Shown piece by piece: positions 11,720 to 29,375 of a DNA stretch of 64,000 nucleotides. The notes beneath the pieces were generated by a model. The model ran no database searches and was not told the origin of the DNA. It worked only from the letters and a program-made list of their open reading frames with translations. Source of the DNA: an uncultured Nitrospiraceae bacterium (GTDB lineage Bacteria > Nitrospirota > Thermodesulfovibrionia > Thermodesulfovibrionales > Dissulfurispiraceae); the NCBI GenBank assembly GCA_963705105.1, contig CAVPIW010000004.1, positions 1-64,000 on the forward strand. Direction: 5' to 3'. The position numbers were made by a program, and so were the translations under genes. Position 1 is the first letter of the stretch, and the number at the start of each line of letters is the position of its first letter.

Positions 11720-11807
11720 GGGGAAGTACTCAAGTGGCTGAAGAGGCGCCCCTGCTAAGGGTGTAGGTCGTTAACGCGGCGCGAGGGTTCAAATCCCTCC
11801 TTCTCCG
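11720..11807 (+). tRNA. tRNA-Ser(GCT)
   Basis: Loop CTGCTAA, long variable arm. Confidence 0.93.
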
Positions 11808-11834
11808 TAGCTTTATCGAAAAGAATAAAAGATT

Positions 11835-11906
11835 GGTCCGTTGGTCAAGCGGTTAAGACACCGCCCTTTCACGGCGGTATCACGGGTTCGATTCCCGTAC
11901 GGATCA
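11835..11906 (+). tRNA. tRNA-Glu(TTC)
   Basis: Loop CTTTCAC. Confidence 0.93.
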
Positions 11907-11922
11907 TTATTTCCAGTATTAT

Positions 11923-11995
11923 GGAGGTTTAGCTCAGCTGGGAGAGCGTCTGCCTTACAAGCAGAATGTCGGCGGTTCGATCCCGTCAACCTCCA
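11923..11995 (+). tRNA. tRNA-Val(TAC)
   Basis: Loop CTTACAA. Confidence 0.93.
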
Positions 11996-11997
11996 TT

Positions 11998-12070
11998 GGT
12001 TCCGTGGTGTAGGGGTCAACATGCCTGCCTGTCACGCAGGAGATCGCGGGTTCAAATCCCGTCGGAGCCG
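11998..12070 (+). tRNA. tRNA-Asp(GTC), second identical copy
   Basis: Same sequence as 11452-11524. Confidence 0.93.
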
Positions 12071-12088
12071 TTTTTAAATTTTTATTTT

Positions 12089-12161
12089 GGTCTGATAGCT
12101 CAGTTGGTAGAGCACTTGATTGAAGCTCAAGGTGTCGGCGGTTCGAATCCGTCTCGGACCA
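12089..12161 (+). tRNA. tRNA-Phe(GAA)
   Basis: Loop TTGAAGC. Confidence 0.93.
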
Positions 12162-12174
12162 TTTTTTATATGAT

Positions 12175-12255
12175 GGAGGGATAGCGAAGTGGCTAAACGC
12201 GGCGGACTGTAAATCCGCTCTTTCGGGTTCGGCAGTTCGAATCTGCCTCCCTCCA
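12175..12255 (+). tRNA. tRNA-Tyr(GTA)
   Basis: Loop CTGTAAA, variable arm. Confidence 0.93.
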
Positions 12256-12265
12256 TTCTTATTAT

Positions 12266-12339
12266 GGCGATCGTGGCGAAGTGGTTAACGCACCGGTTTG
12301 TGGATCCGGCATTCGTGGGTTCAATTCCCATCGGTCGCC
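12266..12339 (+). tRNA. tRNA-His(GTG)
   Basis: Loop TTGTGGA, G-1. Confidence 0.92.
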
Positions 12340-12347
12340 CTCTTTAT

Positions 12348-12387
12348 TGGGCTATCGCCAAGCGGTAAGGCAACAGACTTTGATTCT
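12348..12387 (+). tRNA. tRNA-Gln(TTG), 5' half only, cut at the segment junction
   Basis: TGGGCTATCGCCAAGCGGTAAGGCAACAGACTTTGATTC, then unrelated sequence with no T-arm. Confidence 0.85.
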
Positions 12388-12439
12388 TGTGCAGCCGCTC
12401 ATGGTAAAATACAAGTGATTCCGCAAAAAGGGGGCAAAA

Positions 12440-12961: not shown

Positions 12962-14965
12962 TTACTTTTTCTTTTCGATGTCCGACCTGCGCGGCATCTT
13001 CTTCCCGTCACCCACGGCATAGATCTGCGCGGGTGTCCTGTCCTTTGCACTGAGATTCAGCGACGGCGACGAGATCAGCACGTAATACATGCCGTCGCGA
13101 GGCACCGTGAGGACGTCCTCATATACCCCGTCACCCACATACTTCACGTTGCGGGTGAAGGAGGGGAACCCCGACGAGTGAATAAGCTGCACATACACGT
13201 CCTTTGCCTCGGCCACGGGCGTCCCGTCTTTCGGACTGACCAGCTTAAAGGAAAATTTCAGTTCTCCCGGCGCTTTCGTCTGCCAGACCGTGTTCAGATA
13301 GACGATGTCCGGGTACGGGGGCGTCTTGTCGACGCCGGGGTCCGGCTTCGCCGTAAAGGTGAAGCAATGGATTATCTTGGGAGAGTCGATGAGCATGGCG
13401 ACCTCAAACTCGCCGCTCGCCGGGACTTTGATCCTCGTCCCGTACACGCCCGGCTGGAGCTGGCGGAGGTTCCTGTTGACGACCTTGGGCGCCCTCGCAA
13501 GCCGGCTGCCGTACATGCGGTAGCTGCCCATAGGCACCGAATGCCCCTCCATGTAAAAGAACACGACCCCGTCGGCCGGGTTGACCACTAACATGTGGCC
13601 TTCCATGGAGGACTCGATGATGTTGTCGGCGATGGACTCGAACTCCGCCTCCTTGGGCGGCTTCTGCCCCCCCGTGACCTCGATGGGGCTCAGCTTTTCG
13701 ACGGCGCCCAGGTTGTCGAGCTGTATCAGGCGGACGTAGTTCGTCGCCCTCGTCCGGATATAGGCATAGTTCTTTGTGAACATGATTTGGTCCGGCTCTT
13801 TGTCGATCTCCGTGGTGTACCGCACCTTGTTGTCGGAGGCGTCGAAGACGTACAGGAGGTTCTCCCTGGCGTTCAGGACGAAGCCCCAGCGGTCACCCGG
13901 CGCAAAACGGACGGCCCAGAGCCCCGGCTTCAGCTCTATCTTCTCGCGCACCCCCTGGGACTTCCCGTCCACGATGGCCACATACCCCGCATCTCCGACG
14001 GAGACATAGGCCGCCTTGGAGAGCTTCGAATAGGCGACACTCACCGGCAATCCCTTCAGCTCGATGTCCTTCACCTTCTTCAGCGTCTGCATGTCCACGA
14101 CCGAGAGGGTCCCGCTCTTGGCGTTCGTGACATAGGCGAACAGGCTGTCGTCGGAGAAGGCGATCTCGTGGTGCCCCGCGCCCGTCGCGATGAAGGCGAC
14201 CTTCTCCTTCTTGCTGCTGTCGATCACCGCCACGCCCGACTCGTCCTTGTTGTCGGCGTCAAGGCCCACGAGCAGGTATTTCATATCCGGCTGCAGCACA
14301 ACGCGCACGGGGTTACTGCCCACGGCGATGTTCTTGTCCACCTTGAAGGTCTCCGTGTTGACCACCGCAACCTCTCCTGCCTTCGGCATCGTCACGAAGA
14401 GGTCCTTCTGCTCTCTGCCGTAGGTCCAGTCCTCGCCGGGTCTCTTCATGTGAATCATGGCGTAGAGGTGCGTGATGTTCTGCATGCCGATGATGGGATC
14501 GATGACGGATATCGTCGCGTCGTGGTTCATGGCGAGGATGTAATAGCTGTTCAGGTCCAGCAGGGGCCGGAAAGTCATGATGCCCTTGAAGTAGAGCTGC
14601 ACCTTCTGGTCGCAGGTGTAGGTCTGGGCCTCTTTGCCGGTGGCCCCGCCGGTCTTGAGGTCGATCCACGCGCCGGGGTAGATGGGGGTGATGGGATTGC
14701 CCGTCGTCGCGTCGGTGACAGTGAAGGCGAGATCGGCAAACTGGCCCTCCGTGAGCTCCGCCCCCGCCACAGGTTTGACGGTGAACTCGATCTTCGTGCC
14801 CTTCGTAACGAGCTCCTCCTTCACCGGTTTGCCCAGATCGGAACCCTTTGCGGCAGGGGCCGGCTCTTCCTTCAGCCGCTCGAGGGCCAAGGCGTGGCTT
14901 GCCGGCATTAAGCCGACGGCAACGCCCAGGATGATGCTGAATAAAACGCTTATGTTCTTTCTCAC
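12962..14965 (-). CDS. Periplasmic YncE/cytochrome-cd1-like beta-propeller protein with a C-terminal YtkA/FixH-like Ig domain
   Basis: GTG start after AAGGAG; signal peptide; YVTN-like repeats (AYVTNAKSGTLSVVD, LFVTMPKAGEVAVVNT); C-terminal VGDGVYE..DGMYYVLISSPSL. Confidence 0.8.
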   Translation of the reverse strand: MRKNISVLFSIILGVAVGLMPASHALALERLKEEPAPAAKGSDLGKPVKEELVTKGTKIEFTVKPVAGAELTEGQFADLAFTVTDATTGNPITPIYPGAWIDLKTGGATGKEAQTYTCDQKVQLYFKGIMTFRPLLDLNSYYILAMNHDATISVIDPIIGMQNITHLYAMIHMKRPGEDWTYGREQKDLFVTMPKAGEVAVVNTETFKVDKNIAVGSNPVRVVLQPDMKYLLVGLDADNKDESGVAVIDSSKKEKVAFIATGAGHHEIAFSDDSLFAYVTNAKSGTLSVVDMQTLKKVKDIELKGLPVSVAYSKLSKAAYVSVGDAGYVAIVDGKSQGVREKIELKPGLWAVRFAPGDRWGFVLNARENLLYVFDASDNKVRYTTEIDKEPDQIMFTKNYAYIRTRATNYVRLIQLDNLGAVEKLSPIEVTGGQKPPKEAEFESIADNIIESSMEGHMLVVNPADGVVFFYMEGHSVPMGSYRMYGSRLARAPKVVNRNLRQLQPGVYGTRIKVPASGEFEVAMLIDSPKIIHCFTFTAKPDPGVDKTPPYPDIVYLNTVWQTKAPGELKFSFKLVSPKDGTPVAEAKDVYVQLIHSSGFPSFTRNVKYVGDGVYEDVLTVPRDGMYYVLISSPSLNLSAKDRTPAQIYAVGDGKKMPRRSDIEKKK

Positions 14966-15042
14966 TGCTTTGACTCCTTGCTCTGTGAATTTTTCATGCC
15001 GGTAAAGGCAGATGATCATCTTTAATTATATAACATCACGCT

Positions 15043-15057
15043 GCATTACCAATGCCT
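15043..15057 (-). promoter_or_regulatory. Possible sigma54 -24/-12 element upstream of the propeller gene
   Basis: Minus strand AGGCAT-TGGTA-ATGC has GG-N10-GC spacing; imperfect match to TGGCAC-N5-TTGC. Confidence 0.3.
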
Positions 15058-15355
15058 GCGATTACAATCTGCAAACGACAGGACCGCCTCACGCAGGGCC
15101 GCCAGGCGCGCAAAGAACGACACAAGACCTGAAGCTGCATTCAAGACATATGTCCCGCACAGTCCGTCATGCCGGCTCGTCCGGCATCTTTCTCTGAAGA
15201 GAAGAAGGATTCCCGACAAGCGGGAATGACAAATGGTGAGAAGACAGGACAGTAAGAATTCCTTTCACTGACACTCACACTGACACTGACACTTTCTTGC
15301 TTTTCTTTGCGATCTTTGCGTCTTTGCGCGAGAATAGGTCTGTGGGGAAATCCCC

Positions 15356-15387
15356 AAAAAGGAGGGTGCGGCGGGGCCGCACCCTCC
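15356..15387 (-). terminator. Intrinsic terminator after the multicopper oxidase gene
   Basis: GGAGGGTGCGG...CCGCACCCTCC hairpin followed by T5 on the minus strand. Confidence 0.8.
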
Positions 15388-15410
15388 TCAAGGCTTAGAG
15401 GTTTATACGC

Positions 15411-18400
15411 TTACTCGACCCTGAAGAGGCCCATGAAACCATGGAAGCCGCCCTGCGGGTTCTGCATCCGGTACAGGTAGTCGCCCGCCACTCCGAAAGG
15501 TCCTCCGGCAGGGAACTCAGGAATGAAGTTCCAGTGCCCTGCAGGGCCGTAACCCTCCTGGGCGCCGACGACCTGGGACTGCGGGTTGAGCGCGATCTTT
15601 GCGGACTCGACGCCGCTCACCGTCTCGTGCGGGGTGCGCTGCCACGCGTGGCCGTGGATGACCGGCACGTGGGAGCGCTGATTGCCGGCCGGCATGGTGA
15701 GATAGAACCGGAACTGCTCACCATTATTGGCCGTGAAGATCGGCGTCTCAGGGTCAAGTCCGCCCACCTGGGCGTTGCTGTACAGCTTCGCGGTTGCAAA
15801 AGTCTGCTGGCCGTTCGGGCCGTTCAGCGGGGTGCCAGGCGCCATCTTCAGCCTGAACCAGTAGGGCTCGGACTTGTAGTTGAAGGCCTTGAGGCCGGAG
15901 TCCTCGGCGTCGTCGGCAACGCCGATCTGCGGGTCCTCCGTCGGGAAGCCGGGGATCGGCTGGAAGCCGAAGCCGTTATTCGCAAATATCCCTTGCGGGG
16001 CCGATGCGAAGTAACCGTTCGTCGCGCCTGTTGTCACCGCCACGAACTCGCGGTAGGCCCCTGCAGGGCCCGTGCAGCTCGCCTGGGCCTTTGTCCCGGC
16101 GTCGGGCTTGCAGGTCTGGCCTTTCGGTTCGATCACCAGAGCGCCCACCATGCCCTTCTGCACCTGCTTGATTTTGTCGGCCGGGGAAAGTCCAACCACG
16201 CCGAACTCGATCGGCCGCGGGTTCAGCATCACCAGGGGAATGCCCAGGATGTTCCCGACCTTTGCGATCGTGAAGTCGCCGGCGTACCAGACGTACCTCG
16301 CCGTGCGGCCGGGGCCCACGGTGTTCGTCAGGTTCTTCCCGACATTGACACCGTCGTCCCTCTCGGGGTCGAAGGCGAGGAGCTGCGTGTGAATGCCGAC
16401 GTGGCTCGACGGCCTGATGTCGTTGTTGTTGAAGGTCGGCTTGAACGGTGCGCCCGCTGCATCAACAATGCCCCTGCAGTCATAGTTCGGGCACTTGTCG
16501 ATGATCGGCTCGAGAGTCTGCGTGATGCCGTTCAGGTCAGGCACGTTGTTCGGCAGCCGGTTCGTCAGGCTGACGTGGACGCAATCGCCCGCGTTGGCCC
16601 TCAGGATCAGCGGCTCGGGGGCGATCGTCCCGGCCCTGAGGCCGGCGATGTCGGCGTTGTTTACATAGAGAATGGCCGTCGGGTCGTGCAGAGGTCCCGC
16701 GCCACCGGGGACGGTGAAAGCAGGCTCACCGATGGCCGGGTCGGCAGGTATTACGTTGTCCGGAACGACGTCGTCCCTCGAGTTGTAGACCAGCGTGCCG
16801 CCCGTGGCGCCGCCCAGCGGGTTCACGATGCCGGGCACCGCGGGCAGGATGTCCCGTGCCATGATGGCCGTGATGTTGAACCTCTTGACCGGCGCATTTT
16901 TCGGACAGACGCCGTTCAGGAAGTCGAAGTCGAGCCTGTTGGCCACTATGGCGGGCTTGTTGCCCACAATGCTGTTGGGCAGCGGCTTGAGGTCAGCCCT
17001 CAACTGGTTGTACGACCGCATAAGGCCCCACTCGCCGGTCCAGAGCCCGCTCATCGACATGTTCGAGGCGTACATGTAGTCGGTCGAGGGCTGGAAGCCC
17101 GGCAGTACCGAGAGCAGGTCGCCCAGGACCGCGGAGTCGAACTGGAACTGCTCGGAGATGCCCATGGACTGGTGGTTCTTCCAGCCCGAGTTCGGGTCGG
17201 CGTAGTTCATGAGCCACTTGGCGCCGTGCATGCTGAAGTGGTGAGACTCCTCCGTGGCGCCCACCTGCATCCTGATCTTCACCCGGTCGCCCTCGTAGAC
17301 CCTCATCATCGGCGTGGCGGGGTCGAAGGCCCCCACGTCCTTGCTGAGCGCCGTGGCAGCGACGTTGATGATCGGGGCCCCGATGCCGGCAGCAGTCGGG
17401 GTCGGCAGCGGCGCCGCCAGACCGTTCAGACAGAACGGGTCGCCAAGCGGGTTGCCAACGTCGCCGCAGGTCCCAACACCCGGGGTGGCGAGACAGGACG
17501 GGCACTGTTTCGTGTTTCTTACGTAATACTGCATCACGTTGTTCAGGTCGGGGTCGGCCCTCCGGATAGACGCAAAGGCGAAGGAGAGGTCTCCGGCCTG
17601 GCCCGCGGCCTGTTTGGTGGCAACAGGATCGAAGACGCGGGCGCCCACAGACTCGTTCCGGTAGTTCACGATCTCGAAGCCCTGGTCAGAGCCGCCGATG
17701 GCCTCGGGGCAGGGGCTGATCGGGAGAGCGCCGCCGGGCAGTGCGGGACCCGGGCAATCCTGCGCAAACACATAGATCGCCAAGGGGTCTCCGTCCCTCG
17801 AAGGCCTCGCGATGGCCTCGAGGAAGCTGACATCAGAGATGAAGCCGTCCCAGGTCTTCTTGTAGGCCTGCTGGAAGTCGGAGTTCTCGAAGTAGAACTC
17901 GCGGTACGGCGTCGGGTTGTAGCTGCTCGAACCTGCCGGCGGGATAATCTGGGCCTGCCACGAAGTGGGGCCGCCATCGGCAGTGAGGGTCTGAGGCGAG
18001 CCGAGACGGTTTGCCAGAGGCGCGCCGGTCTCGTTGTGAATCCACTTCGACCCTGCAGGCTCGGCGAGAATGGTCGCGTAGAGGCCGATCTGCTGGAAGG
18101 TGGAAGGACCGAAGTGGTCATGGGTGAAGACGTTGCCGATGCCTCGGTCCTTCCCGGTGCTGTCGAGCACGGGGTCGGCCAGCCAGCGCTGGACCGTCGT
18201 CCGGGAGCCGCAGGTGGCGCCGCCACAGCCCAACGCGGCCGCTTGAGGTGACCCCGCAAACTGGGGAATCCCGTCAAGGGTGGGGTGCGGCTTCGGTATC
18301 AGCTGGGCCACTGTCGGACCCGTTGCAGTCGGTTTCCATGCGCCCGCCTTGATCGCCTTGATCCTCTCGACGATCTCGCCGGGGCTCATGGTGCCGTCCT

Positions 18401-21400
18401 CGTAGTTCCAGAGGTTCGCCGCGCCGTCAGAGGAGGCCACGTCGAACTTGGTCATGTGCGAGTGCTGGGCGATGATGTCGGTGGGTGTCCTGACCTGGAA
18501 GTCATCCAGCTCGTAGAAGTTCGGCACCAAGTTGCTGTGCCAGACCTCTGCGCAGTCAAGGGTGTTCAGCCTGAAGACCATCGGCGCAGGGGCCAGTTTG
18601 CCCGCGTACATGTCGGGGATGTCTCCCCAGAGGGCGATGATCCTCTGCTGCGGGAAGTGCCAGCCCTTCTTGTTCAGCACCAGGTCGATCTGGATGTTGC
18701 TGATCTTGTAAGGCCTGAGACTGTCGACCCCGAACTGGACGGCCTCGGGAAGTACAAACCCGTTGCAGTTGTCCCCGTCAGGGTTGTCGGCCCGCGCCAG
18801 TGAGCAGTTCGGGCTGTTCCACGTGGGCGTGAAGCCCTTCACCAGCATGTCGCCCTTGCTGTCCACGCAGGGGTCGCTGTGGGGCGCGCCGGGGACTGCC
18901 TTCGCTGCGCCGTTGGTGATATAGCCGCCCCTGAAGGGCTTGCCCTGTTTATTACTTCCTTGGCAGATTGCCTCGACTGCAGCGTTGCCGGTCTGGGTCC
19001 ACGTGTTGTGGCACCTCTTCTGCTGGAAGGCAAAGGAGTCCTTCTCGACGGCAGTTCCGGCCTCAGGCACCTGCTCGGCCTCGACTGCCAGGAGCTCCTT
19101 GCTGATGTCGAAGCGGTTCACGACGAACTCCGCCTCGCCGCCCGTGATGATGTGCCTCGGCAGGCCGCCGTCAAGCGAGTTTTTCAACGGGTTGGGGCAT
19201 TCGTTGTTCGCGTCAAGAGGCACAAGGCACGCGATGTCCAATGGCGGAGAGGGCGGACGGTGTCCGGCGATTGCCCCCCGATCGGCATTCGCCGCCATGA
19301 TGTAGAACGGGAAGCCGGGGTTCTTCTCTTTCGTGATCGGGTTCGGCTCGACGATGATCCTGCGCGGGTCTGCCGGGTTGATCGCCACTGCGGCAGGGGC
19401 CGGCGCCATCGGGTAGAGCGGCAGGGGAACCACCGCCGGGACCGGCGAGCCGTTGCACATGCCGACGCAGACCTTCTTCAGCGTGGTCCCTTGCCCACAG
19501 GGAGGTACGCTCTGTGTGCCGTCGGTAGCTACACATGCATCAACCATCGCCAACTCGCCGTCGGGGTATGCGCGTGAGCCCGGTGCGGGAGGCGCGTCAC
19601 GTTGCGCCCAGACTGCCCTCGTGCCGTCAGCAGCAAGGAGCGGGTCCAGCAGCGTGCCCTCGGAAAAGGTGTCGAGCATCCTGAGAGACGACCACATGCC
19701 CTGGGCGAAATGAGGATAGAAGTGGCAGTGGTAGATCGCGTCGCCGGGGTTGGCGTTCCTGTTACCCGCACCCTCGTTCGTCAGGTCCATGGTGTAGGCG
19801 CCGCCGGGGCCTATCTGCTGCATGTCCTGGTAGTTGGCCTTGTCGCTCTTGGGCGAGAAGACCCACTGGTTGTTGTGCAGGTGGAAGATGTGGTGCTCGA
19901 AGGCACCTGCATGGATGTTCCTGAACTTGAAGTGGTCCCTGATGTAACTGTGGTGCACGTTGGACGGGTTGTCCGGGTAGAGCGCCACAGTCGCCTTGGG
20001 GCCGGGACCGGGAAGGTCCTGGGGCCCGCCGCAGAAGACGGGGTTCACGCCATCGGGTATCAGACCTGCAAAAGGCCTCACAAAGGGAGTGACCGCCGGG
20101 TCTGCGGAGATGTTGTTGACGAGCGGGTTGTTGAGGTCCTGGACGCAGCCGTTGGCAGGCACGTCGACCCACATGCCGGGGTCGCCCACCGCGTAGGAGG
20201 TGAGGAAGAACTCCTCGGCCTTGCACTCGGGGCAGTCCCACATGGGGCCCACGGCAAGCCTGTTGGCCACAATCTCGGGGCCGATGGCGCCGCCGCCGTA
20301 GTTGATGACGAAGCCGTCCTTCGTGATCGCGAAGGTGTGCTTCAGCACGGGGTTCACGAAGAAGAACGGGAAGGCCTGGACGTTGAACTGCTCGTCACCG
20401 AAGACCGAGGCGGCCTCGCGGAAGGGCAGGTCCTGCCGGGGGTTCGTCGAGGTCGACGGGTAGGTCGAGCCGATACCGAACGTGCCCTTTTTCGGGCCGG
20501 TGATGACGGCGTGGATGTCGCTGTGCACGAGCTTCGTGCCCTGCAGCATCGCCAGGATCGGCCGCCCTGCCTTGCCCTCATCCTTGAAAGGCTGGACATC
20601 GGGGTAGAGCGCGTCATAGTTGATGACCGGCTGGTCAGCCGCCGTCCTGTTCTGGTTGGCCTTGTCAAGGCAGGAAATCGAGGGGTTCGGGCCGGCAAGG
20701 ACGGCAGGCTTGCACGCCGCCAGGGCCATGTCCTCGTTGGTCACGTGGCCGCGGTAGTACTCGGCCGCCGCCGACGGCATCCCGGGGATGCCGGGCTCCA
20801 CGATCACCACACCGTAGAGTCCGAAGGCCAGGCTTCCGCCCGCGCCCTCCGAGCCGGTCGTGTTGGCCATGTTGGTGATCATGTAGACGTTCTCGTCCTG
20901 GGCGTAGTAGGTGTATATCTTCTGTTTGCCCGGCGCGGCAAGGCTGCTCGCGTTTTTACCGACCCAGGAGCCGTCGCTATCGATGCTACCCACGAGCGGC
21001 AGGCCCGTCACGTGCGCCGAGGCGTCACGGGTGACGTTCTGCTCGTTCGGGTCGATCGGAACGGGGTTTAAGAGGTTTGTGAAGTTGATCTGCAGGCAGT
21101 CGCCCTTGCTCACGCGCAGGGCGATGGGCTGCGGCCTCTTGTCGGGGCGCAGCACAACCTGGCCTGCCTGGCAGCCGCCACCTACGCATGGTGTCTTGCC
21201 GATGACACCGCCAGTGATCGGAAAAACGTCCTCGGCCAGGGCATAAATCATGCCCAGGTTGTTCAGCGAGCCGAGTCTGTTCAGGAAGTAATTCTGGTCG
21301 AGGGCGATCACGTCGGCAACGATTGTCCGGTTGCAAGCCGCTTGATTCGCAGCCGCCTTGTCGGGCGTCGCGAAGCCGACGATGAGCCCCAGGACCAGAA

Positions 21401-21443
21401 TCAGCACAGTGAGTGCCGTCCATCGTGGTATCTGGTCTTTCAT
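15411..21443 (-). CDS. Giant secreted multicopper oxidase, MnxG-like (2010 aa)
   Basis: Signal peptide; copper motifs HHIFHLHNNQW, YHCHFYPHFAQGM (type-1 site), QHSHMTKFD, FTHDHFGP, SHHFSMHG, SHVPVIHGH across multiple cupredoxin domains. Confidence 0.88.
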   Translation of the reverse strand: MKDQIPRWTALTVLILVLGLIVGFATPDKAAANQAACNRTIVADVIALDQNYFLNRLGSLNNLGMIYALAEDVFPITGGVIGKTPCVGGGCQAGQVVLRPDKRPQPIALRVSKGDCLQINFTNLLNPVPIDPNEQNVTRDASAHVTGLPLVGSIDSDGSWVGKNASSLAAPGKQKIYTYYAQDENVYMITNMANTTGSEGAGGSLAFGLYGVVIVEPGIPGMPSAAAEYYRGHVTNEDMALAACKPAVLAGPNPSISCLDKANQNRTAADQPVINYDALYPDVQPFKDEGKAGRPILAMLQGTKLVHSDIHAVITGPKKGTFGIGSTYPSTSTNPRQDLPFREAASVFGDEQFNVQAFPFFFVNPVLKHTFAITKDGFVINYGGGAIGPEIVANRLAVGPMWDCPECKAEEFFLTSYAVGDPGMWVDVPANGCVQDLNNPLVNNISADPAVTPFVRPFAGLIPDGVNPVFCGGPQDLPGPGPKATVALYPDNPSNVHHSYIRDHFKFRNIHAGAFEHHIFHLHNNQWVFSPKSDKANYQDMQQIGPGGAYTMDLTNEGAGNRNANPGDAIYHCHFYPHFAQGMWSSLRMLDTFSEGTLLDPLLAADGTRAVWAQRDAPPAPGSRAYPDGELAMVDACVATDGTQSVPPCGQGTTLKKVCVGMCNGSPVPAVVPLPLYPMAPAPAAVAINPADPRRIIVEPNPITKEKNPGFPFYIMAANADRGAIAGHRPPSPPLDIACLVPLDANNECPNPLKNSLDGGLPRHIITGGEAEFVVNRFDISKELLAVEAEQVPEAGTAVEKDSFAFQQKRCHNTWTQTGNAAVEAICQGSNKQGKPFRGGYITNGAAKAVPGAPHSDPCVDSKGDMLVKGFTPTWNSPNCSLARADNPDGDNCNGFVLPEAVQFGVDSLRPYKISNIQIDLVLNKKGWHFPQQRIIALWGDIPDMYAGKLAPAPMVFRLNTLDCAEVWHSNLVPNFYELDDFQVRTPTDIIAQHSHMTKFDVASSDGAANLWNYEDGTMSPGEIVERIKAIKAGAWKPTATGPTVAQLIPKPHPTLDGIPQFAGSPQAAALGCGGATCGSRTTVQRWLADPVLDSTGKDRGIGNVFTHDHFGPSTFQQIGLYATILAEPAGSKWIHNETGAPLANRLGSPQTLTADGGPTSWQAQIIPPAGSSSYNPTPYREFYFENSDFQQAYKKTWDGFISDVSFLEAIARPSRDGDPLAIYVFAQDCPGPALPGGALPISPCPEAIGGSDQGFEIVNYRNESVGARVFDPVATKQAAGQAGDLSFAFASIRRADPDLNNVMQYYVRNTKQCPSCLATPGVGTCGDVGNPLGDPFCLNGLAAPLPTPTAAGIGAPIINVAATALSKDVGAFDPATPMMRVYEGDRVKIRMQVGATEESHHFSMHGAKWLMNYADPNSGWKNHQSMGISEQFQFDSAVLGDLLSVLPGFQPSTDYMYASNMSMSGLWTGEWGLMRSYNQLRADLKPLPNSIVGNKPAIVANRLDFDFLNGVCPKNAPVKRFNITAIMARDILPAVPGIVNPLGGATGGTLVYNSRDDVVPDNVIPADPAIGEPAFTVPGGAGPLHDPTAILYVNNADIAGLRAGTIAPEPLILRANAGDCVHVSLTNRLPNNVPDLNGITQTLEPIIDKCPNYDCRGIVDAAGAPFKPTFNNNDIRPSSHVGIHTQLLAFDPERDDGVNVGKNLTNTVGPGRTARYVWYAGDFTIAKVGNILGIPLVMLNPRPIEFGVVGLSPADKIKQVQKGMVGALVIEPKGQTCKPDAGTKAQASCTGPAGAYREFVAVTTGATNGYFASAPQGIFANNGFGFQPIPGFPTEDPQIGVADDAEDSGLKAFNYKSEPYWFRLKMAPGTPLNGPNGQQTFATAKLYSNAQVGGLDPETPIFTANNGEQFRFYLTMPAGNQRSHVPVIHGHAWQRTPHETVSGVESAKIALNPQSQVVGAQEGYGPAGHWNFIPEFPAGGPFGVAGDYLYRMQNPQGGFHGFMGLFRVE

Positions 21444-21562
21444 GATTTGTTCTCCTCTCTCATGTTAGACATGTTCATACTTGTTCCCTCCCCTCGTGGG
21501 AGCCGCCTGAAATGCGTTTTCCCCTTTAACAGGGAATCCCTTGTGCTCTCACCTCCCTTTTG

Positions 21563-21961
21563 TTATGGCAGTGGTACACTGTCGAGCCATTCCTTTGTCT
21601 GGCCCCTGTTGTTTTCCTGTATCCTGCGGGCGAAGTCCTCGAAGTCGAGCGGCTTTTCGAGAAAAGCGACGACGCCGAGCGCCGCAAGCCTCTGCTCCGT
21701 GTCATTGTTCAGAAAGGCCGACATGACCATGACGGGGATGTCGGGGTGTCTCCTGTTCATCTCGCCGATGAGCTCGAACCCGTCCATGACAGGCATGAAG
21801 AGGTCGGTGACGACGAGGTCGATGGGCTTCCTGTCAAGGATTTCCAGCGCCTCTTTCCCGTTGAGGGCCGTGAAGACCGCCAGGCGCTTCGAGGAGCACA
21901 GGCCGTCGCAGAGGCTCTGCAGAAAACCCGCTTCATCGTCCACGACGAGCACCTTTTTCAT
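21563..21961 (-). CDS. Single-domain response regulator (CheY-like receiver)
   Basis: VLVVDDE..DLVVTDLFMPVMDG..MSA..FLEKP; no output domain. Confidence 0.92.
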   Translation of the reverse strand: MKKVLVVDDEAGFLQSLCDGLCSSKRLAVFTALNGKEALEILDRKPIDLVVTDLFMPVMDGFELIGEMNRRHPDIPVMVMSAFLNNDTEQRLAALGVVAFLEKPLDFEDFARRIQENNRGQTKEWLDSVPLP

Positions 21962-22057
21962 ATCCCTCTTTCCTCTTGCGGAGGGCAATTACGAACCTGC
22001 CAACCGTTTCGCGCCTTTTTTTTCAATATCATTATGCGCTATGGACGAGGGGATGTC

Positions 22058-22124
22058 TATGGAAAGAACTACCTATTTAACGGTCCGCAGAAATACCTAT
22101 TTGGGGGTAGGTAGAAATACCTAC
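22058..22124. promoter_or_regulatory. Triple operator-like array, TACCTA(T/C) at 22070, 22094, 22118
   Basis: Exact 24-bp period; third unit is a perfect GTAGGTA-GAAA-TACCTAC palindrome. Confidence 0.7.
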
Positions 22125-22297
22125 CGACCCTTCCTTTTCAGGACACGGGTCAATCGGGAGGTCGACGATCTTGTAAGGCCTGAGGTTGGGTTTACCGAGC
22201 GGGGAGCTCAGGGGGTCGTCGTCGCCATGAACTGGATTTTCACGACACTTCGTCTTCGTCTTGCCTTTCCATGCAACGACAGGGTGTAAAAAATGAA

Positions 22298-22325
22298 GAA
22301 GCCGCAGGCTTCAGCCTGCGGCTTC
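22298..22325 (-). terminator. Hairpin (terminator or REP-like) after the ELWxxDGT gene
   Basis: GAAGCCGCAGGC-TTCA-GCCTGCGGCTTC, T-rich downstream on the minus strand; related palindromes at ~32500 and ~58200. Confidence 0.65.
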
Positions 22326-22350
22326 GGGCTCTGCGATTGAGAAGCCCTCT

Positions 22351-24192
22351 CTACGGCCCGGGCACGACCAATATCGTCTGCCACACGTAAAAGGTGCCTA
22401 TGTCCCCCGCCTTTGTTATCGCCACAAAGAAATTGTAATCGGCCGGCGGAAACAGACTGAGCGGGATGGCGTTAAACAGCCCGGCGCTCACCTGAGTCGT
22501 CACATCCTCCCGCCAGGGCACGAAACCCTCGGAGAGCGGACGCAGGGTGAAGTCCGGATGGAGTATGAAAATCTCCGGAGTCAGCTTCGGCGCTGTTATC
22601 GCCACGTAGATATCGATTGGACCGGCATAGGGTCCCGTAGCAAGGCTCACGCGCACTGCGTCCCCGCCTGAGGCTGCGCTGCCGAGGCCGAGCGGCTTGG
22701 CGTCGGCAGGCGCGGCGCCAACCACGGGGTCGTCGACAGCCTGATAGAGGAACACCTCCTTGCCGGCAGGCAGGGGCAGCAGAACGGCGTCGGGCCTGAG
22801 GACCCACAGTTCAGAGCCGTCAACGCCGTCATCGGCTGCAAAGAAGAGCGTGCCGCTCACGTTTGCGAGAAAAGCGGGAGATGACGGGCTGGCGCCGGGG
22901 TTGATGTCCTTGACCAGGACGGTACCGGCCGCCGTGCCGTCGCTCTTCCACAGCTCGAGGCCGTTCGTCCCGTTTTCCGCCGCGAAGTACAGCGTGCCGT
23001 TCACGTTTGTCAGGGAATCCAGGAACGAGCTTGTCGCCCCGGGTGCGATGTCCCTGACAAGCACCGTGCCGGCCGCCGTGCCGTCGCTCTTCCACAGCTC
23101 GAAACCGGTGGTCCCGTTGTCGGCGACGAAAAAGAGCGTACCGCCCACGTCCGTAAGAGATGCCGGCAAAGAGGGAAGCGCACCGGGATTGATGTCCTTG
23201 ACGAGGACCGTGCCCGCCGCTGTGCCGTCACTCTTCCACAGCTCGAGGCCGTCGGTCACGTTTTCGGCGGCAAAGAACAACGTGCCGTTGACATTCGTCA
23301 GAGATCCCGAAAAAATCGATGAGGAATTCCCTGCGAAGATGTCCCTGACCAGGACGGTCCCGGCCGCCGTCCCGTCGCTTTTCCACAGCTCGAAACCGTT
23401 CGTCCCGTTGTCCGCCGCAAAGTACAGCGTGCCGTTCACGTTTGTCAGGGAATCCGGGAACGAGCTTGTCGCCCCGGGTGCGATGTCCTTGACGAGGACC
23501 GTGCCCGCCGCCGTCCCGTCGCTCTTCCACAGCTCGAAACCGGTGGTCCCGTTGTCGGCGACGAAGAAAAGCGTGCCGTTCACGTTCGTCAGGAGGTCCG
23601 GGGAAGAAGGGGCGATACCGGGGTTGATGTCCTTGACGAGGACGGTCCCGGCCGCCGTCCCGTCGCTTTTCCACAGCTCGAAACCGCTAACGCCGTCGTC
23701 GGCCACGAAAAAAAGCGTGCCGTTGACGTTCGTCAGGAGACCCGGGGAAGAGGAGGCGACACCGGGGCTGATGTCCCTGACAAGGACGGTCCCCGCAGCC
23801 GTCCCGTCGCTCTTCCACAGCTCGACGCCGCTGACGACGGCATCAGCCACGAAAAAAAGCGTGCCGTTCACGCTCGTCAGGAGGTCCGGGGAAGAGGAGG
23901 TGATACCGGGGTTGATGTCCCTGACAAGGACGGTCCCCGCAGCCGTCCCGTCGCTTTTCCACAGCTCGACGCCGCTGACACCGTCGTCGGCTGCGAAATA
24001 TGCCACTCCGCCCACGTCCGTTATGTTCGCAGGGTTGGAGCCGAATATGCCGGGCTGTATGGTTATTGAGACGGGATCCGCCCCGAAGGTCAGCCCCGGA
24101 AACACCGGCACTATAAACAGCAACGCAAAAAAGATCGCCCTCCTGAGAAAAACTTCTATCATCGTCCCTCTTGTTAACCGATTGCGCCCCAT
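22351..24192 (-). CDS. Secreted ELWxxDGT-repeat protein with an unnamed C-terminal domain
   Basis: Eight ~48-aa repeats containing ELWKSDGTAAGTVLV plus a partial ninth; signal peptide; GGAGG RBS. Confidence 0.92.
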   Translation of the reverse strand: MGRNRLTRGTMIEVFLRRAIFFALLFIVPVFPGLTFGADPVSITIQPGIFGSNPANITDVGGVAYFAADDGVSGVELWKSDGTAAGTVLVRDINPGITSSSPDLLTSVNGTLFFVADAVVSGVELWKSDGTAAGTVLVRDISPGVASSSPGLLTNVNGTLFFVADDGVSGFELWKSDGTAAGTVLVKDINPGIAPSSPDLLTNVNGTLFFVADNGTTGFELWKSDGTAAGTVLVKDIAPGATSSFPDSLTNVNGTLYFAADNGTNGFELWKSDGTAAGTVLVRDIFAGNSSSIFSGSLTNVNGTLFFAAENVTDGLELWKSDGTAAGTVLVKDINPGALPSLPASLTDVGGTLFFVADNGTTGFELWKSDGTAAGTVLVRDIAPGATSSFLDSLTNVNGTLYFAAENGTNGLELWKSDGTAAGTVLVKDINPGASPSSPAFLANVSGTLFFAADDGVDGSELWVLRPDAVLLPLPAGKEVFLYQAVDDPVVGAAPADAKPLGLGSAASGGDAVRVSLATGPYAGPIDIYVAITAPKLTPEIFILHPDFTLRPLSEGFVPWREDVTTQVSAGLFNAIPLSLFPPADYNFFVAITKAGDIGTFYVWQTILVVPGP

Positions 24193-24514
24193 GTCTTCCT
24201 CCCTGTTGTGCCGTTCTCAGCATTATTACTCACGACCCTGATTTTCAAATGCCTCATATTGCCTCATATTTTAACAAGCCTCACCTGCTATCCTTAAATT
24301 ATCATCCACCGGGCTGAACATGTCAAGAGCGTGCAACAATGCGCATTTGGCCCTCCCTGCATGCAGCTTAGAACTATCATTACTCCGACTGTCACCCTGT
24401 GCTTGCCCGCTAATCCGGCATTCGGCTGTCGTATTCCCACCGTCGCGGGAATGACGATTTCAAAATGATAAAAAGATTCACTCTTCTATTATAGGCCATG
24501 AAATGAGTGGCATC

Positions 24515-24581
24515 CATGGGAGAAACTACCTAATATGGGGTCTGCAGAACTACCTATTTTAGGATGGGCAAAACTACCTAT
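24515..24581. promoter_or_regulatory. Second triple operator-like array, TACCTA(A/T) at 24527, 24551, 24575
   Basis: Exact 24-bp period; alignable with 22058-22124. Confidence 0.7.
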
Positions 24582-24593
24582 AAGAATAGTAAC

Positions 24594-24899
24594 GAGGAAT
24601 CAGGACTGAGGACTGAGGAACAAATTACGGCACAAAAAACAGTAAAAAAGGACTCAGTTAGGGTTTGTGAGATAAGACAGTCGCGAGGACTGAGGACTCA
24701 GTTGCAGGGTACGGGTTGCGCCTAAAGCAGACGGTACAAGGTGCACGGTATACGGTCCACGGGAAATTGAATACAGAATGCAGAATATAGAATTCAGAAT
24801 TCGGGAGATCCAGTCTCCAATCTCCAGCCTCTAACCTCTCCGTCTCTGACCCTGAACCCTGGACCTCGTACCTTGAACCGATCTTTCTGATCTCCAATC
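24594..24899. repeat. Mosaic of short imperfect ~7-nt tandem repeats
   Basis: Consecutive blocks of AGGACTG, CGGGTTG, GGTRCAC, CAGAATT, TCTCCAR and GAACCCT-like units. Confidence 0.75.
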
Positions 24900-25550
24900 T
24901 CAGATGTAACCTTTTTTGATTGCATATTTGATGAGGTCGGCCGTCATCCTGACGTTGAGCTTCTTCTTGATGTTGGCGCGGTGGTGCTCGGTGGTCCTGA
25001 CGCTGATGAAAAGCAATTTTGCGATCTCCCTGCTGGACCTGCCCTCGGCGATGAGCTTGAGGATCTGCCGCTCCCGCGCCGTCAGGAGTTCGGGTTCGCC
25101 TGCAGGCTCGGTGGGTGTCCGAAACGCCCGTGCCCAGTCGGCGATGACGTCCTCCCCGAGGCTGGGCGACACATAGACCCGGCCTTCCCGGACCCTCCCG
25201 ATGGCGGAGAACAGCTCCGAGTCGGCGTCCTCTTTGAGGAGATACCCGTCGGCGCCGGCGGCCATGGCCTCTGAAAGGTACTTTCTCTCGCTGTGCATGG
25301 TGAGGATAAGGACCTTGATGCCGGGCCGGATCGTCCTGATCTCCCCGATCGCCTCCAGTCCCCGGAGCCTCGGCATGGAGAGGTCAAGGATGACCATGTC
25401 GGAGGGCGTCTTCTTCAAAAGGTCTATGAGATCGAGGCCGTCGCCCGCCTCACCGACCACCCGCATCCAGTCCGCACTTTCGATGAGCATCCTCAGCCCC
25501 TGCCTGAGGAGAGTGTGATCGTCGGCGAGCACGATGCGATACGCGTTCAT
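24900..25550 (-). CDS. NarL/FixJ-family response regulator (REC + LuxR HTH)
   Basis: IVLADDHTLLRQGL..ILDLSMP..LTARERQILKLIAEG..EIAKLLFISVRT..HRANIKKKL. Confidence 0.96.
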   Translation of the reverse strand: MNAYRIVLADDHTLLRQGLRMLIESADWMRVVGEAGDGLDLIDLLKKTPSDMVILDLSMPRLRGLEAIGEIRTIRPGIKVLILTMHSERKYLSEAMAAGADGYLLKEDADSELFSAIGRVREGRVYVSPSLGEDVIADWARAFRTPTEPAGEPELLTARERQILKLIAEGRSSREIAKLLFISVRTTEHHRANIKKKLNVRMTADLIKYAIKKGYI

Positions 25551-28306
25551 TCTTTATTCTCGGGGATCAGGATGTCCACGATAGTCCCTTCACCGTAGTG
25601 ACTGACGACATTGATGGCGCCGTTCATCTTGGCTGTCATCTTCCTGGCGATCACGAGGCCGAGACCGGTGCCCCGTTCCTTTGTCGTCCGGAAGGGCTTG
25701 AAGAGGTCTCTCTGCTGCTGCTCCGACATGCCCCGGCCGTTGTCGACGACCCGTATTTTGATCATGTCTTCCATTTTCGTCACGGCGAGCTCGATGACCG
25801 GGTCGTCCCTTCCGTCGACGGCGTCCATGGCGTTGCTCACGATGTTGAGCAGTACCTGCTGGAGGGCCCGCGGGTCGGCATAGGCCCGGGGGGCGTCAGG
25901 GGCCACGCTGCTTTTCACCCCTATGCCCCTGCTCCCGCAATCGTCCGATACGAGGGCGATGAAACGCTCCATGAAGGCGTTCATCCCGATCTCCCGGATC
26001 TCCGGCACTTCATACATGTTGAAGTTCCTGAGCGCCTTAAGGAGATACTCGACACGTGATATCTCACTCATGCAGCGGTTGATGTACTCGGTGATGTCCT
26101 CTTTCGTAAAACTGTCGATCCTGTTTCTCAGGACACCGAGGGTGATCTTGAGGGAATTGACGGGGTTGCCGATCTCGTGACGGATGCCCGAAAAGACGTA
26201 GCCGATATTTTCCATGGTGTTGACGGCCTCGGCGATGGACTCGAGACGCATCCTCTCGGTGACGTCCCAGATCATGCCGAGGAGGCCCCTGATCGTCCCC
26301 GCTTCGTCCCTGATGGGTGTCTTGAAGACGCGGATGATCATCTCCTTGCTGTCTTTCCAGTATCGCTCCACAACCTCAACGGGTTTTCCCGATGCTATAA
26401 TCGCCCTGTCCTCGGCGATATGTTTTTCCGCTGAAGACGGCGGATAAAGGTCCCTGTCCGTCTTTCCGACGATCCGCTCCGGTGTCAGGCCCAGATCACT
26501 CGCGTAGCTGTTGTTACAGTAGACATAAACAGAGCGGCAGTCTTTCAGGAATATCTTCTGGGGAAGGTTTTCGACGAGCATCCTGAACCTGTTTTCGCTC
26601 TCCCTGAGGGCTTCCTCGGCCAGCATCCTGTCGGTGATGTCGCGGTTGTTCCCGCGGGTCCCGAGAAAAGAGCCGCCGTGGTCGAAAACAGGCTGGCAGA
26701 CATGGCCGATCCGGCGGATCGCTCCGTCCGGCTTTACAATGCGGAACACCGTTTCGTCAAAGGTCATCCGCAACTCGGCGCTCTGACGGTGGTGCTCGAA
26801 CGCTTCCCTGTCATCAGGGTGTATGATGCTCGTGAGCAGACCGGGGTCGCCCATGAATGCGTCGGCGTCATGACCGGTGATGCGTTTGCACGAGGGTGAC
26901 GAGTAGATGAAACGGCCGTCGGTCCCGATCCAGAACTCCCAGTCGTACGTGTTGTCCGCAACGATCTGGTATCGTTCTGCGACGATCCTGTATCTTGCCT
27001 CCGATTCCCGGAGGTCCCTCTCGACACCCTGCCGCTCTTCGACGTCGGCCGCGAGACGCTCATTCAGGTCCTCCAGCTCCATCGTCCGCTCCCTGACTCG
27101 TTTTTCCAGCTCTTCCTTGACAGCGATTAGGTCATCCGTAGACGTTTTTAACTCCTTTGTCATGATGGTAAAAGAGCGGGCCAGGTCACCCACCTCGTCC
27201 CGCGAGGAGGCGTCGACGGCAATGTCGAAGTTCCCCTTGCCGACGTCCGCCACGGCGTCCCGGAGTCTCACGAGGGGCGCAGAGATCGTCCGTGCGATGC
27301 GATAACCGAGAACGACGGAAATAAAGACGGCGGCAATAAAGAAAATAAGTGCCGTGCGCTGGAGCGACAGGGCGTTCATCACTGAGGTTTCACGAACGCG
27401 GTCGGCCAGAACCAGGTAACGGTCCACGATTTCGCCTGCCACCAGCCCGATCACGTGCCGGGTGCCGATCAGTTTTTGGATGTCATCGCCGTGTTTTTCG
27501 ATTATTTCTCTTTTTCCCTTTCTCGTTTCTCCGTCATACAGACGGAGGATCGATGCCCCCTCATCCATCAGTGACGCCGATCCGGCTTGCAGCGATGCAA
27601 TGCCCTCCCTGTCTTCGGCAGCGGTCGCCCACTCGTCGAGATAGACGATCCGGCTGTCCAGTGAAGCCCGTTCCCCGAAAAAATGTCCCCGGTCAACCGG
27701 ATCGTGCAGCACAAGATAAAAGATCATGTGACTCACAGCATGCTTTGCGTGGCTGTTCGCTTCCGCTGCCGTCATGATCGCCGCCTGCCTGTCATGGGCG
27801 CTCGTCTCGATCCGGATGAGTCTGAGTGTTTCGGCGCGGACGGCGTTCGTCGATTCCTGCAGGCGCCGCACCGGTTCCCTGTTTCGCTCGAAAAAGAACG
27901 CCCTGTCACCTATCATCTCCCTGTCATGGATATCGAGAAGCTCCCGCTGGACGGCAAACACTTTCTCCGTATCGGCCATAATCCTGTCAAGGATCTTTCT
28001 TGCCTCAGGCAGTTTCACTCTCTCCTCCAGCAGGGAAATCTCTCCGCCGGCGGACTGCTGGAGTTTCACCACCTCGGCGCGGTCGGCCGGGTCCTGGCGG
28101 GCAAGGAAGAGCATGAGGTGGATCTCCGCCTCTGTGACGTCATCGAAGAGGGCCATCGCCGCGGCACAGATGGCCTTGAAGTGCTCCTCTCTGCCCTCGA
28201 AAGACCGGATGATTTCTTTGCCGGCAATGAGGGCGAAGATGCCCGCAAGTCCGACGAGCAGAGCGATGGCAAGGAATCCGGCGATGATCTTGTGGTGGAT
28301 CTTTAT
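25547..28306 (-). CDS. Membrane sensor histidine kinase (periplasmic sensor-HAMP-PAS-PAS-HisKA-HATPase); probable ATA start
   Basis: HAMP DEVGDLARSF; PAS YSSPSCKRITG; H-box RHEIGNP; N box NIVSNA; DNGRG and GTGLGL. The frame extends 50 codons above the annotated ATG through a TM helix to an ATA preceded by AGGAG. Confidence 0.9.
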   Translation of the reverse strand: MKIHHKIIAGFLAIALLVGLAGIFALIAGKEIIRSFEGREEHFKAICAAAMALFDDVTEAEIHLMLFLARQDPADRAEVVKLQQSAGGEISLLEERVKLPEARKILDRIMADTEKVFAVQRELLDIHDREMIGDRAFFFERNREPVRRLQESTNAVRAETLRLIRIETSAHDRQAAIMTAAEANSHAKHAVSHMIFYLVLHDPVDRGHFFGERASLDSRIVYLDEWATAAEDREGIASLQAGSASLMDEGASILRLYDGETRKGKREIIEKHGDDIQKLIGTRHVIGLVAGEIVDRYLVLADRVRETSVMNALSLQRTALIFFIAAVFISVVLGYRIARTISAPLVRLRDAVADVGKGNFDIAVDASSRDEVGDLARSFTIMTKELKTSTDDLIAVKEELEKRVRERTMELEDLNERLAADVEERQGVERDLRESEARYRIVAERYQIVADNTYDWEFWIGTDGRFIYSSPSCKRITGHDADAFMGDPGLLTSIIHPDDREAFEHHRQSAELRMTFDETVFRIVKPDGAIRRIGHVCQPVFDHGGSFLGTRGNNRDITDRMLAEEALRESENRFRMLVENLPQKIFLKDCRSVYVYCNNSYASDLGLTPERIVGKTDRDLYPPSSAEKHIAEDRAIIASGKPVEVVERYWKDSKEMIIRVFKTPIRDEAGTIRGLLGMIWDVTERMRLESIAEAVNTMENIGYVFSGIRHEIGNPVNSLKITLGVLRNRIDSFTKEDITEYINRCMSEISRVEYLLKALRNFNMYEVPEIREIGMNAFMERFIALVSDDCGSRGIGVKSSVAPDAPRAYADPRALQQVLLNIVSNAMDAVDGRDDPVIELAVTKMEDMIKIRVVDNGRGMSEQQQRDLFKPFRTTKERGTGLGLVIARKMTAKMNGAINVVSHYGEGTIVDILIPENKE

Positions 28307-29333: not shown

Positions 29334-29375
29334 GCTTCACCAACTCGCAAGGAAGGGCGAACAAAGGAAAATCCA

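What the first reader, a model, noticed from the sequence alone, without database searches (positions are those of the whole stretch)
12962..28306. Candidate metal-oxidation system: giant MnxG-like oxidase, propeller partner, ELWxxDGT protein and a dedicated signalling module
Seen: six co-oriented genes over ~15 kb: sensor kinase, NarL-type regulator, ELWxxDGT protein, stand-alone receiver, 2010-aa secreted multicopper oxidase, and YncE-like propeller. A shared operator array links two of their upstream regions. Known: MnxG-type large multicopper oxidases oxidise Mn(II) in Bacillus and Pseudomonas putida, where control is by a sigma54-type activator. Inference: a differently wired extracellular Mn/Fe/Cu oxidation or O2-handling system, possibly with the ELWxxDGT protein as surface scaffold. 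No SCO gene is adjacent. The substrate cannot be read from the sequence.
Basis: partly seen in the sequence, partly recalled or inferred. Interest (0 to 1): 0.8.

Follow-up and report, generated by a model that had tools for sequence, protein, structure and literature searches.

The report
Split manganese-oxidase regulon in an anaerobe
This sulfate- and nitrate-reducing bacterium, in which the two usual oxygen-respiring enzymes were not found, carries a giant copper oxidase of the known manganese-oxidising MnxG type; a repeated DNA switch, likely read by the neighbouring regulator, ties it to helper genes elsewhere in the genome, and it likely removes oxygen outside the cell.

Summary
All six genes and both operator arrays are real. 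The 2010-aa protein is MnxG-type. It keeps all 12 copper ligands, its best solved match is Bacillus MnxG, and its clade is sister to Pseudomonas-type MnxG. It scores below the NCBIfam MnxG cut-off (1329 of 3100). The propeller is the known second gene of the P. putida mnxG operon. The ELWxxDGT gene is not a conserved partner (0 of 90 related loci).

The wiring is new. The operator occurs at one other place in the genome: contig C10, before an OmpB/MofA-like oxidase (frameshifted in this assembly), an SCO chaperone and a MofC-like cytochrome. So the 'missing' SCO is present, under the same switch. The same 24-nt-spaced pair follows the closest relatives of this NarL-type regulator in 10 of 17 loci from other genomes (0 of 8 other NarL genes). 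In 4 of those 16 genomes copper-oxidase genes come next. Two further MnxG paralogues on C9 keep sigma54 promoters.

The host has DsrAB and NapA; no heme-copper or bd oxidase was found. Best reading: an inducible, secreted Mn(II)/O2 oxidase acting as an oxygen sink. Substrate and binding are untested.

The parts
25547..28306 (-). Sensor histidine kinase (N-terminal sensor, HAMP, 2 PAS, HisKA, HATPase), 919 aa from an ATA start; whether it is the partner of the NarL-type regulator is uncertain
24900..25550 (-). NarL/LuxR-type response regulator, the likely binder of the operator
   Evidence: relatives at 49-61% identity carry the operator pair downstream in 10 of 17 loci
24517..24580 (-). Operator array 1: three 16-nt imperfect palindromes at 24-nt period; the last abuts a -35 box with TATAAT 39 nt from its start
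24298..24326 (-). Second, near-consensus sigma70 promoter-like site (11 of 12) before the ELWxxDGT gene
22351..24192 (-). ELWxxDGT repeat protein: signal-like N-terminus, 9 repeats, and a ~140-aa C-terminal domain found in 21 ORFs on 10 contigs of this genome
22298..22325 (-). Terminator-like stem after the ELWxxDGT gene
22031..22123 (-). Operator array 2 (three sites, 22123-22060) with abutting sigma70 promoter-like site (22059-22031) for the receiver and oxidase
21563..21961 (-). Stand-alone receiver domain, 132 aa; a lone receiver also precedes the oxidase in G037, G170 and 5 of 62 other loci
15411..21443 (-). MnxG-type multicopper oxidase, 2010 aa, signal-like N-terminus; ligands H518, H521, H523, H572, C573, H574, H578, M583, H994, H996, H1108, H1110
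12962..15019 (-). YVTN-type beta-propeller with flanking beta-rich domains; homologue of the second gene of the mnxG operon; likely start GTG at 14965

Best explanation
The locus encodes an MnxG-type multicopper oxidase with a complete copper-ligand set and its usual propeller neighbour; the NarL-type regulator likely switches it on through the operator arrays together with an SCO, cytochrome and second-oxidase cluster on contig C10, and the enzyme is predicted to be secreted and likely passes electrons from Mn(II) to O2, which would give this anaerobe an outside oxygen sink. Steps: (1) shown: ligands, gene order, three operator-promoter units of identical geometry; (2) inferred: the phosphorylated regulator binds the 16-nt palindromes next to -35 and activates sigma70 promoters; (3) inferred: export by Sec and type II secretion (GspC and GspD are present), copper loading by the C10 SCO protein; (4) inferred from family knowledge: Mn(II) is oxidised at the type 1 copper and O2 is reduced to water at the trinuclear site; (5) inferred: induction when O2 and Mn(II) meet at the sediment redox boundary. 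The ELWxxDGT gene is a co-regulated surface protein of this lineage, not a needed subunit.
For: Ligands conserved in 91-92 of 92 homologues. The only solved-structure sequence match is Bacillus MnxG 9bxa, E 5.5e-72; it is also the top fold match, E 9.6e-36. The clade is sister (0.989) to the clade holding a protein that passes the MnxG cut-off. A propeller gene lies in 49 of 62 loci with at least 3 kb downstream, SCO in 37 of 54 with at least 6 kb. A matrix built from the six window sites finds one further pair genome-wide, at C10:65157, before an oxidase, the genome's one strong SCO match and a cytochrome c/periplasmic-binding gene, with TATAAT at the same offset. The pair scores 6 or more downstream of 10 of 17 related regulators (best shuffle 5.5) and of 0 of 8 other NarL genes. 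Cu-oxidase genes follow the regulator in 4 of 16 genomes. Host: DsrA, DsrB, DsrM, DsrK, NapA, GspC, GspD above cut-off; no match for PF00115, PF01654 or PF02322 at 99% completeness. Mn(II) oxidation by MnxG is established in P. putida and Bacillus (PMC13689576).
Against: The score is far below the MnxG equivalog cut-off (1328.9 of 3100) and identity to the passing protein is 39%, so the substrate may differ. The fold match is partial (TM 0.47 on residues 34-1200). No MnxE/F-like genes were found with the two small Priestia queries. The C10 oxidase is split over two frames. The adjacent kinase is HisKA, not the HisKA_3 type seen beside relatives. In about 10 of the 16 genomes the regulator is not followed by copper-oxidase genes or the large protein that precedes them; one target is formate dehydrogenase, so the signal need not be O2 or Mn. 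The matrix found the pair in none of the 94 other oxidase loci. G037 and G170 have this oxidase together with heme-copper oxidases, so it does not simply replace them. G000 also has a flavodiiron-like protein, below cut-off, that could remove O2 inside the cell.
Confidence: 0.5

Rival explanations
1. The oxidases serve reduction of, or attachment to, Fe(III)/Mn(IV) oxides, as OmpB does in Geobacter sulfurreducens, and the regulon responds to solid electron acceptors.
For: The co-regulated C10 cluster has the ompB layout (oxidase with fibronectin-like tail, SCO, MofC-like cytochrome), and OmpB is required for Fe(III) oxide reduction (PMC5566968). The host has 26 ORFs with four or more CxxCH motifs. 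In G282 the same operator precedes a respiratory formate dehydrogenase.
Against: The window enzyme keeps a full trinuclear O2-reducing ligand set and groups with MnxG, not OmpB. No porin-cytochrome conduit was looked for.
Confidence: 0.2
2. It is a laccase-like enzyme that oxidises humic or phenolic compounds or cross-links an extracellular matrix built from the many secreted repeat proteins.
For: The C9 paralogues lie among at least eight predicted secreted proteins with FG-GAP, Ig-like or choice-of-anchor domains; the ELWxxDGT protein shares the operator; two-domain laccases are the next fold matches.
Against: The best sequence and fold match is MnxG by a wide margin, and the propeller-SCO-cytochrome set of the Mn-oxidation operon is kept.
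Confidence: 0.15
3. It is a copper(I) or iron(II) homeostasis oxidase.
For: A NosL-family gene with an ABC transporter lies beside the C9 copies; SCO is in the regulon.
Against: No copper efflux gene was seen beside the window, C9 or C10 oxidases; a separate small CopA-like oxidase exists on C5 (below cut-off).
Confidence: 0.1
4. The arrays are read by another LuxR-family factor, and the kinase, regulator and oxidase are neighbours by chance.
For: The genome has other NarL-type genes on C9 and C14; 7 of 17 related regulators lack a pair scoring 6 or more.
Against: 10 of 17 relatives of this regulator carry the pair just downstream against 0 of 8 other NarL genes, the two paralogues included.
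Confidence: 0.05

Closest known systems
Pseudomonas putida GB-1 mnxG operon (PputGB1_2447 onward) with MnxS1/S2/R
   Same: Giant MnxG-type oxidase followed by a YVTN propeller gene; signal-like N-terminus; type II secretion in the genome; SCO and cytochrome c/periplasmic-binding genes present (PMC11409713 passages, PMC13689576 sections 5 and 20).
   Different: SCO (one, not two) and the cytochrome gene are on another contig; this copy has a NarL-type operator and sigma70 promoter instead of a sigma54 site; three paralogues; below the NF041487 cut-off; host is a Dsr- and Nap-bearing anaerobe.
Bacillus sp. PL-12 Mnx complex (MnxG with MnxE3F3; PDB 9bxa)
   Same: Copper motifs align in the same order over the whole protein; top fold match.
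   Different: About 800 residues longer; no MnxE/F-like genes found; a propeller gene travels with it instead.
Geobacter ompB (GSU1394) and Leptothrix mofABC clusters
   Same: The C10 cluster under the same operator has an oxidase with fibronectin-like tail, SCO and a MofC-like cytochrome (PMC5566968 passages).
   Different: No direct sequence comparison with OmpB or MofA was made; the C10 oxidase is frameshifted in the assembly; shared control with an MnxG gene is not described in the papers seen.
GerE/LuxR-family binding sites (RWWTRGGYN2YY, PMC2695774 table)
   Same: 4 of the 8 sites match this consensus exactly.
   Different: Sites form 16-nt palindromes repeated every 24 nt and belong to a two-component regulator subfamily.

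Membership tests
MnxG (NF041487 equivalog) | Score above the curated cut-off of 3100 | tested here: not met
   1328.9 bits; paralogues 1363 and 1547; P0091 passes with 3155
MnxG-type multicopper oxidases | Type 1 and trinuclear copper ligands in the MnxG arrangement | tested here: met
   Ten His, Cys and Met align with 9bxa and are conserved in 91-92 of 92 homologues; role of each ligand is from general knowledge of the family
MnxG-type multicopper oxidases | Placement among MnxG proteins in a tree | tested here: met
   73 proteins, 1478 columns, rooted on a Bacillus-type MnxG: window clade sister (0.989) to the clade with P0091; P. putida MnxG, McoA, MofA and OmpB themselves were not in the tree
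MnxG-type multicopper oxidases | Fold like Bacillus MnxG | tested here: inconclusive
   Residues 34-1200, pLDDT 81.8: top hit 9bxa, E 9.6e-36, TM 0.47; the C-terminal 800 residues were not modelled
MnxG-type multicopper oxidases | Mn(II) oxidation with O2 | not testable with these tools
   Needs an assay; the Mn-site residues could not be mapped because the structure paper is not held
P. putida mnxG operon | Propeller gene directly after mnxG | tested here: met
   next gene in 33 of 62 loci
P. putida mnxG operon | Two SCO genes and a cytochrome c/binding-protein gene in the same operon | tested here: not met
   Not at this locus; one SCO and one cytochrome gene on C10 behind the same operator
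P. putida mnxG operon | SurA-domain gene | not tested
   No search was run
P. putida mnxG operon | sigma54 promoter and MnxR-type activator | tested here: not met
   No -24/-12 match in 450 nt before the window oxidase, receiver or ELWxxDGT gene; matches 76-77 nt before both C9 paralogues (consensus recalled)
P. putida mnxG operon | Type II secretion system for export | tested here: met
   GspC above cut-off and two GspD above cut-off; use by this enzyme is inferred
Bacillus Mnx complex | MnxE and MnxF genes | tested here: not met
   Two small genes upstream of the Priestia MnxG gave no hit better than E 0.11; their identity as MnxE/F is inferred from position
ELWxxDGT repeat proteins (TIGR04534) | Repeats above cut-off | tested here: met
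   9 repeats, 612.5 bits against 65

The most novel reading that the evidence does not exclude
A sulfate- and nitrate-reducing Nitrospirota lineage without heme-copper or bd oxidases uses secreted giant multicopper oxidases as its O2-reducing end point: cell electrons reach them through the MofC-like cytochrome or a Mn(II)/Mn(III) shuttle, the propeller ring takes the place of the Bacillus MnxE3F3 cap, and a previously undescribed NarL-type regulator with a 24-nt-period operator is a recurring switch for extracellular copper-oxidase clusters across the order.
Probability: 0.12. Interest if true: 0.85.

Novelty: new variant of a known kind. Interest (0 to 1): 0.52.

Why it matters
Mn-oxidase-like genes in sulfate reducers have been called enigmatic (PMC9224936), and whether Pseudomonas-type MnxG needs accessory proteins is an open question (PMC13689576). 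This genome sharpens both. The propeller stays with the oxidase at both MnxG loci while SCO and the cytochrome moved away, which makes it the first candidate for the accessory subunit. The operator gives a defined regulator, three defined promoters and a defined gene set, so the inducing signal can be tested directly. One genome also holds sigma54-type and NarL-type copies of the same enzyme.

Tried and rejected
ELWxxDGT as conserved partner: rejected. No ELWxxDGT protein in 90 loci (the one motif hit in L024 lies inside an SCO protein). In the phylum sample without G000, 13 of 350 genomes have the family, 17 of 350 an MnxG-like gene and 3 both, on different contigs. Fisher p 0.02 overstates this, since kin are not independent and two of the three are in one family.

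Operator as a general feature of mnxG loci: rejected (0 of 94 loci; 0 of 5 genomes by exact pattern; 0 in viral contigs). The exact paired pattern matched 3 of 300 other genomes of the order against 6 hits for the reversed control, so the pattern alone is not evidence; only G282 had the regulator beside it. A sigma54 scan of 85 oxidase loci found none; start positions were rough, so I draw nothing from it.

No RNA holder was listed. Public contigs did not cover the C10 frameshift, and none could be laid on the window, so the ATA start and the frameshift are unchecked against reads. The Atlas gave only unnamed hits under 0.9 for the 140-aa domain. NosZ was not found above cut-off. The kinase as proven partner: not accepted.

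Full report
Observation. The six minus-strand genes are present with the domains claimed. The kinase frame is open to 28306, where an ATA codon follows a ribosome-binding site. Two arrays of three TAGGTA[G/T]TT words at 24-nt spacing lie before the ELWxxDGT gene and before the receiver; with one mismatch allowed, no other such pair exists in the genome. A terminator-like stem after the ELWxxDGT gene and separate promoter-like sites show several transcription units.

The oxidase. Pfam finds nothing; NCBIfam finds only the MnxG model, at 1328.9 bits against a cut-off of 3100. The only solved sequence match is Bacillus MnxG, 9bxa (E 5.5e-72). Ten histidines, a cysteine and a methionine that form the type 1 and trinuclear sites (roles from family knowledge) are conserved in 91-92 of 92 full-length homologues. 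A model of residues 34-1200 (pLDDT 81.8) has 9bxa as top match, E 9.6e-36, TM 0.47. In a tree of 73 chosen proteins the window protein and its two C9 paralogues fall in a clade that is sister (0.989) to the clade holding P0091, which passes the MnxG cut-off. Copies from G001, G037 and G170 fall elsewhere, which suggests separate acquisition. The family is large (2578 hits among 8000 candidates) but rare in the host's order (4 of 301 genomes). It works like MnxG by ligands, fold and neighbours, but it is not a member of the curated equivalog.

Neighbours. In P. putida, mnxG is followed by a YVTN propeller, two SCO genes, a cytochrome c/binding-protein gene and a SurA gene (PMC11409713, passages; PMC8218464, passages). 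I examined 90 loci (80 best of 585 from genomes, 10 from metagenomes; some are near-duplicates). Of 62 with at least 3 kb downstream, 49 hold a propeller gene and in 33 it is next. Of 54 with at least 6 kb, 37 hold SCO and 34 the cytochrome gene. Of 62 with at least 3 kb upstream, 19 have a sigma54 activator, 5 a lone receiver and 4 a NarL-type gene close by. None of the 90 holds an ELWxxDGT protein. The propeller model (pLDDT 91.7) best matches a YVTN propeller. The ELWxxDGT protein ends in a 140-aa domain found in 21 ORFs on 10 contigs, so it looks like one of many surface proteins of this lineage. It also has a near-consensus promoter of its own.

The split regulon. A weight matrix from the six window sites found one more pair in the genome, at C10:65157, scoring 8.6 against 21.7-26.2 for the window pairs. 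It lies before a CotA-related oxidase with a fibronectin-like tail that is split over two frames, the genome's one strong SCO match, and a cytochrome c/periplasmic-binding gene. This is the layout described for ompB and mofA clusters (PMC5566968, passages); I did not compare sequences with OmpB or MofA directly. In all three places the last site abuts a -35 box and is followed by a [T/C]ATAAT hexamer 39 nt from its start; 3 of 52 core words in the genome have this, against 0.012 expected. Two of the three defined the motif and the core was loosened to include C10, so only C10 is an independent case. The two C9 paralogues have sigma54-like sites 76-77 nt upstream; the window copy has none in 450 nt. 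A kinase and a sigma54 activator lie just upstream of the C10 cluster.

Who reads the operator. Seventeen loci in 16 other genomes of the order (301 searched) hold close relatives of the regulator. In 10 of 17 the 800 nt downstream carry a pair spaced 23-24 nt scoring 6.7-19.0; the best of 20 shuffles per locus was 5.5. None of 8 other NarL-type genes does (best 1.5), and 4 of 180 random windows reach 6, with the scores of the true sites. These genomes are kin, so the count is not ten independent events. I extended 15 of the 17 loci. Pfam Cu-oxidase genes follow the regulator in G220, G238, G025 (opposite strand) and G037 (regulator with an internal stop, no pair). In G155 and G053 a large SdrD-like protein follows, like the one that precedes Cu-oxidase genes in G220 and G037, before the contig ends. 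Other targets differ, for example formate dehydrogenase in G282. Both kinases scanned beside close relatives (G220, G282), and the one at L079, are HisKA_3; the window kinase is HisKA. The sensor domain of the G220 kinase has one homologue in this genome, the C10 kinase (34%, E 1e-37). Four of eight sites match the GerE consensus (PMC2695774, one table passage).

Host. Source labels of relatives' proteins read Nitrospirota; the order Thermodesulfovibrionales is my inference. DsrA, DsrB, DsrM, DsrK, NapA, GspC and GspD pass their cut-offs. No heme-copper or bd oxidase was found with three families in a genome rated 99% complete. G001 likewise has the oxidase without PF00115, but G037 and G170 have both. 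The one public run holding most of the stretch is labelled freshwater sediment and may be the source sample.

Mechanism. Shown: genes, ligands, operator geometry, operator-regulator co-occurrence. Inferred: activation, export, copper loading, Mn(II) as donor, O2 as acceptor and the oxygen-sink role. I put this at 0.5; rivals are metal-oxide reduction as for OmpB (0.2), laccase-like chemistry (0.15), copper or iron homeostasis (0.1) and chance neighbourhood (0.05).

Print. Mn-oxidase-like genes in a Thermodesulfovibrionales genome were already noted as enigmatic (PMC9224936, passages; its Table S5, which names the gene type, was not read). The 2026 review (PMC13689576; abstract, passages, section 5 parts 1-2 of 3, section 20) describes sigma54 control and asks whether accessory proteins are needed. 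The Mnx structure paper was not held and is known here only through that review. Ten searches listed no paper whose title or opening points to NarL-type control of an MnxG gene or to this operator; none was aimed squarely at the operator, and most subscription papers are not searched. An earlier scan note (e1-5059399) called a canonical mnxG island a known system, which agrees.

Verdict. A known enzyme and partner with new wiring in an unexpected host: new variant of a known kind, interest 0.52.

Noticed in passing
window 1-12390: The left end of the contig looks foreign: low-complexity, eukaryote-like DNA to about 8880, then a 23S fragment only 81.4% identical to the two 23S matches on C5 and C10, 5S and 23 tRNAs, ending in a cut-off tRNA-like start near 12350-12390. 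Probably a chimeric assembly; the finding itself is tied to the host by paralogues on C9 and the operator on C10.
   Followed up: partly
window 22351-22780 and 29765-31282; 21 ORFs on 10 contigs of G000: An unnamed ~140-aa domain at the start, middle or end of many predicted secreted proteins; no Pfam match, Atlas hits under 0.9. Possibly a lineage-specific anchoring or sorting domain.
   Followed up: partly
G000:C9:284000-322500 (L016, L017, L130): Two more MnxG-type genes (62% and 47% identical) and a propeller among at least eight predicted secreted proteins, with a shared upstream word found only before these two genes, and a NosL gene with an ABC transporter upstream. One accessory family recurs beside the oxidase in G001, G170, L088, L089, L093 and is fused to it in L091.
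   Followed up: partly
G000:C10:65301-69960 (L129): OmpB/MofA-like oxidase split over two overlapping frames near C10:68000; full-length relatives of about 1700 aa exist at 71% identity. Assembly error or pseudogene, unresolved.
   Followed up: partly
L207, L209, L210, L021: Clusters of three small Cu-oxidase-domain genes, often behind an 1800-aa SdrD/beta-helix protein, recur next to this regulator or next to an MnxG-type gene; perhaps a multi-subunit copper oxidase.
   Followed up: no
L185 (G282:C60): The same regulator and operator pair precede a formate dehydrogenase operon.
   Followed up: partly
L033 and P0021: An MnxG-type gene with its propeller in Candidatus Methanoperedens, an anaerobic archaeon.
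   Followed up: no
window 15088-15335, 29375-29467, 29643-29735: Short repeated intergenic elements, one a 43-nt inverted pair at 93% between 15293 and 29417.
   Followed up: no
window 29765-31282: Predicted secreted CehA/McbA-family metallohydrolase above cut-off, ending in the 140-aa domain.
   Followed up: no
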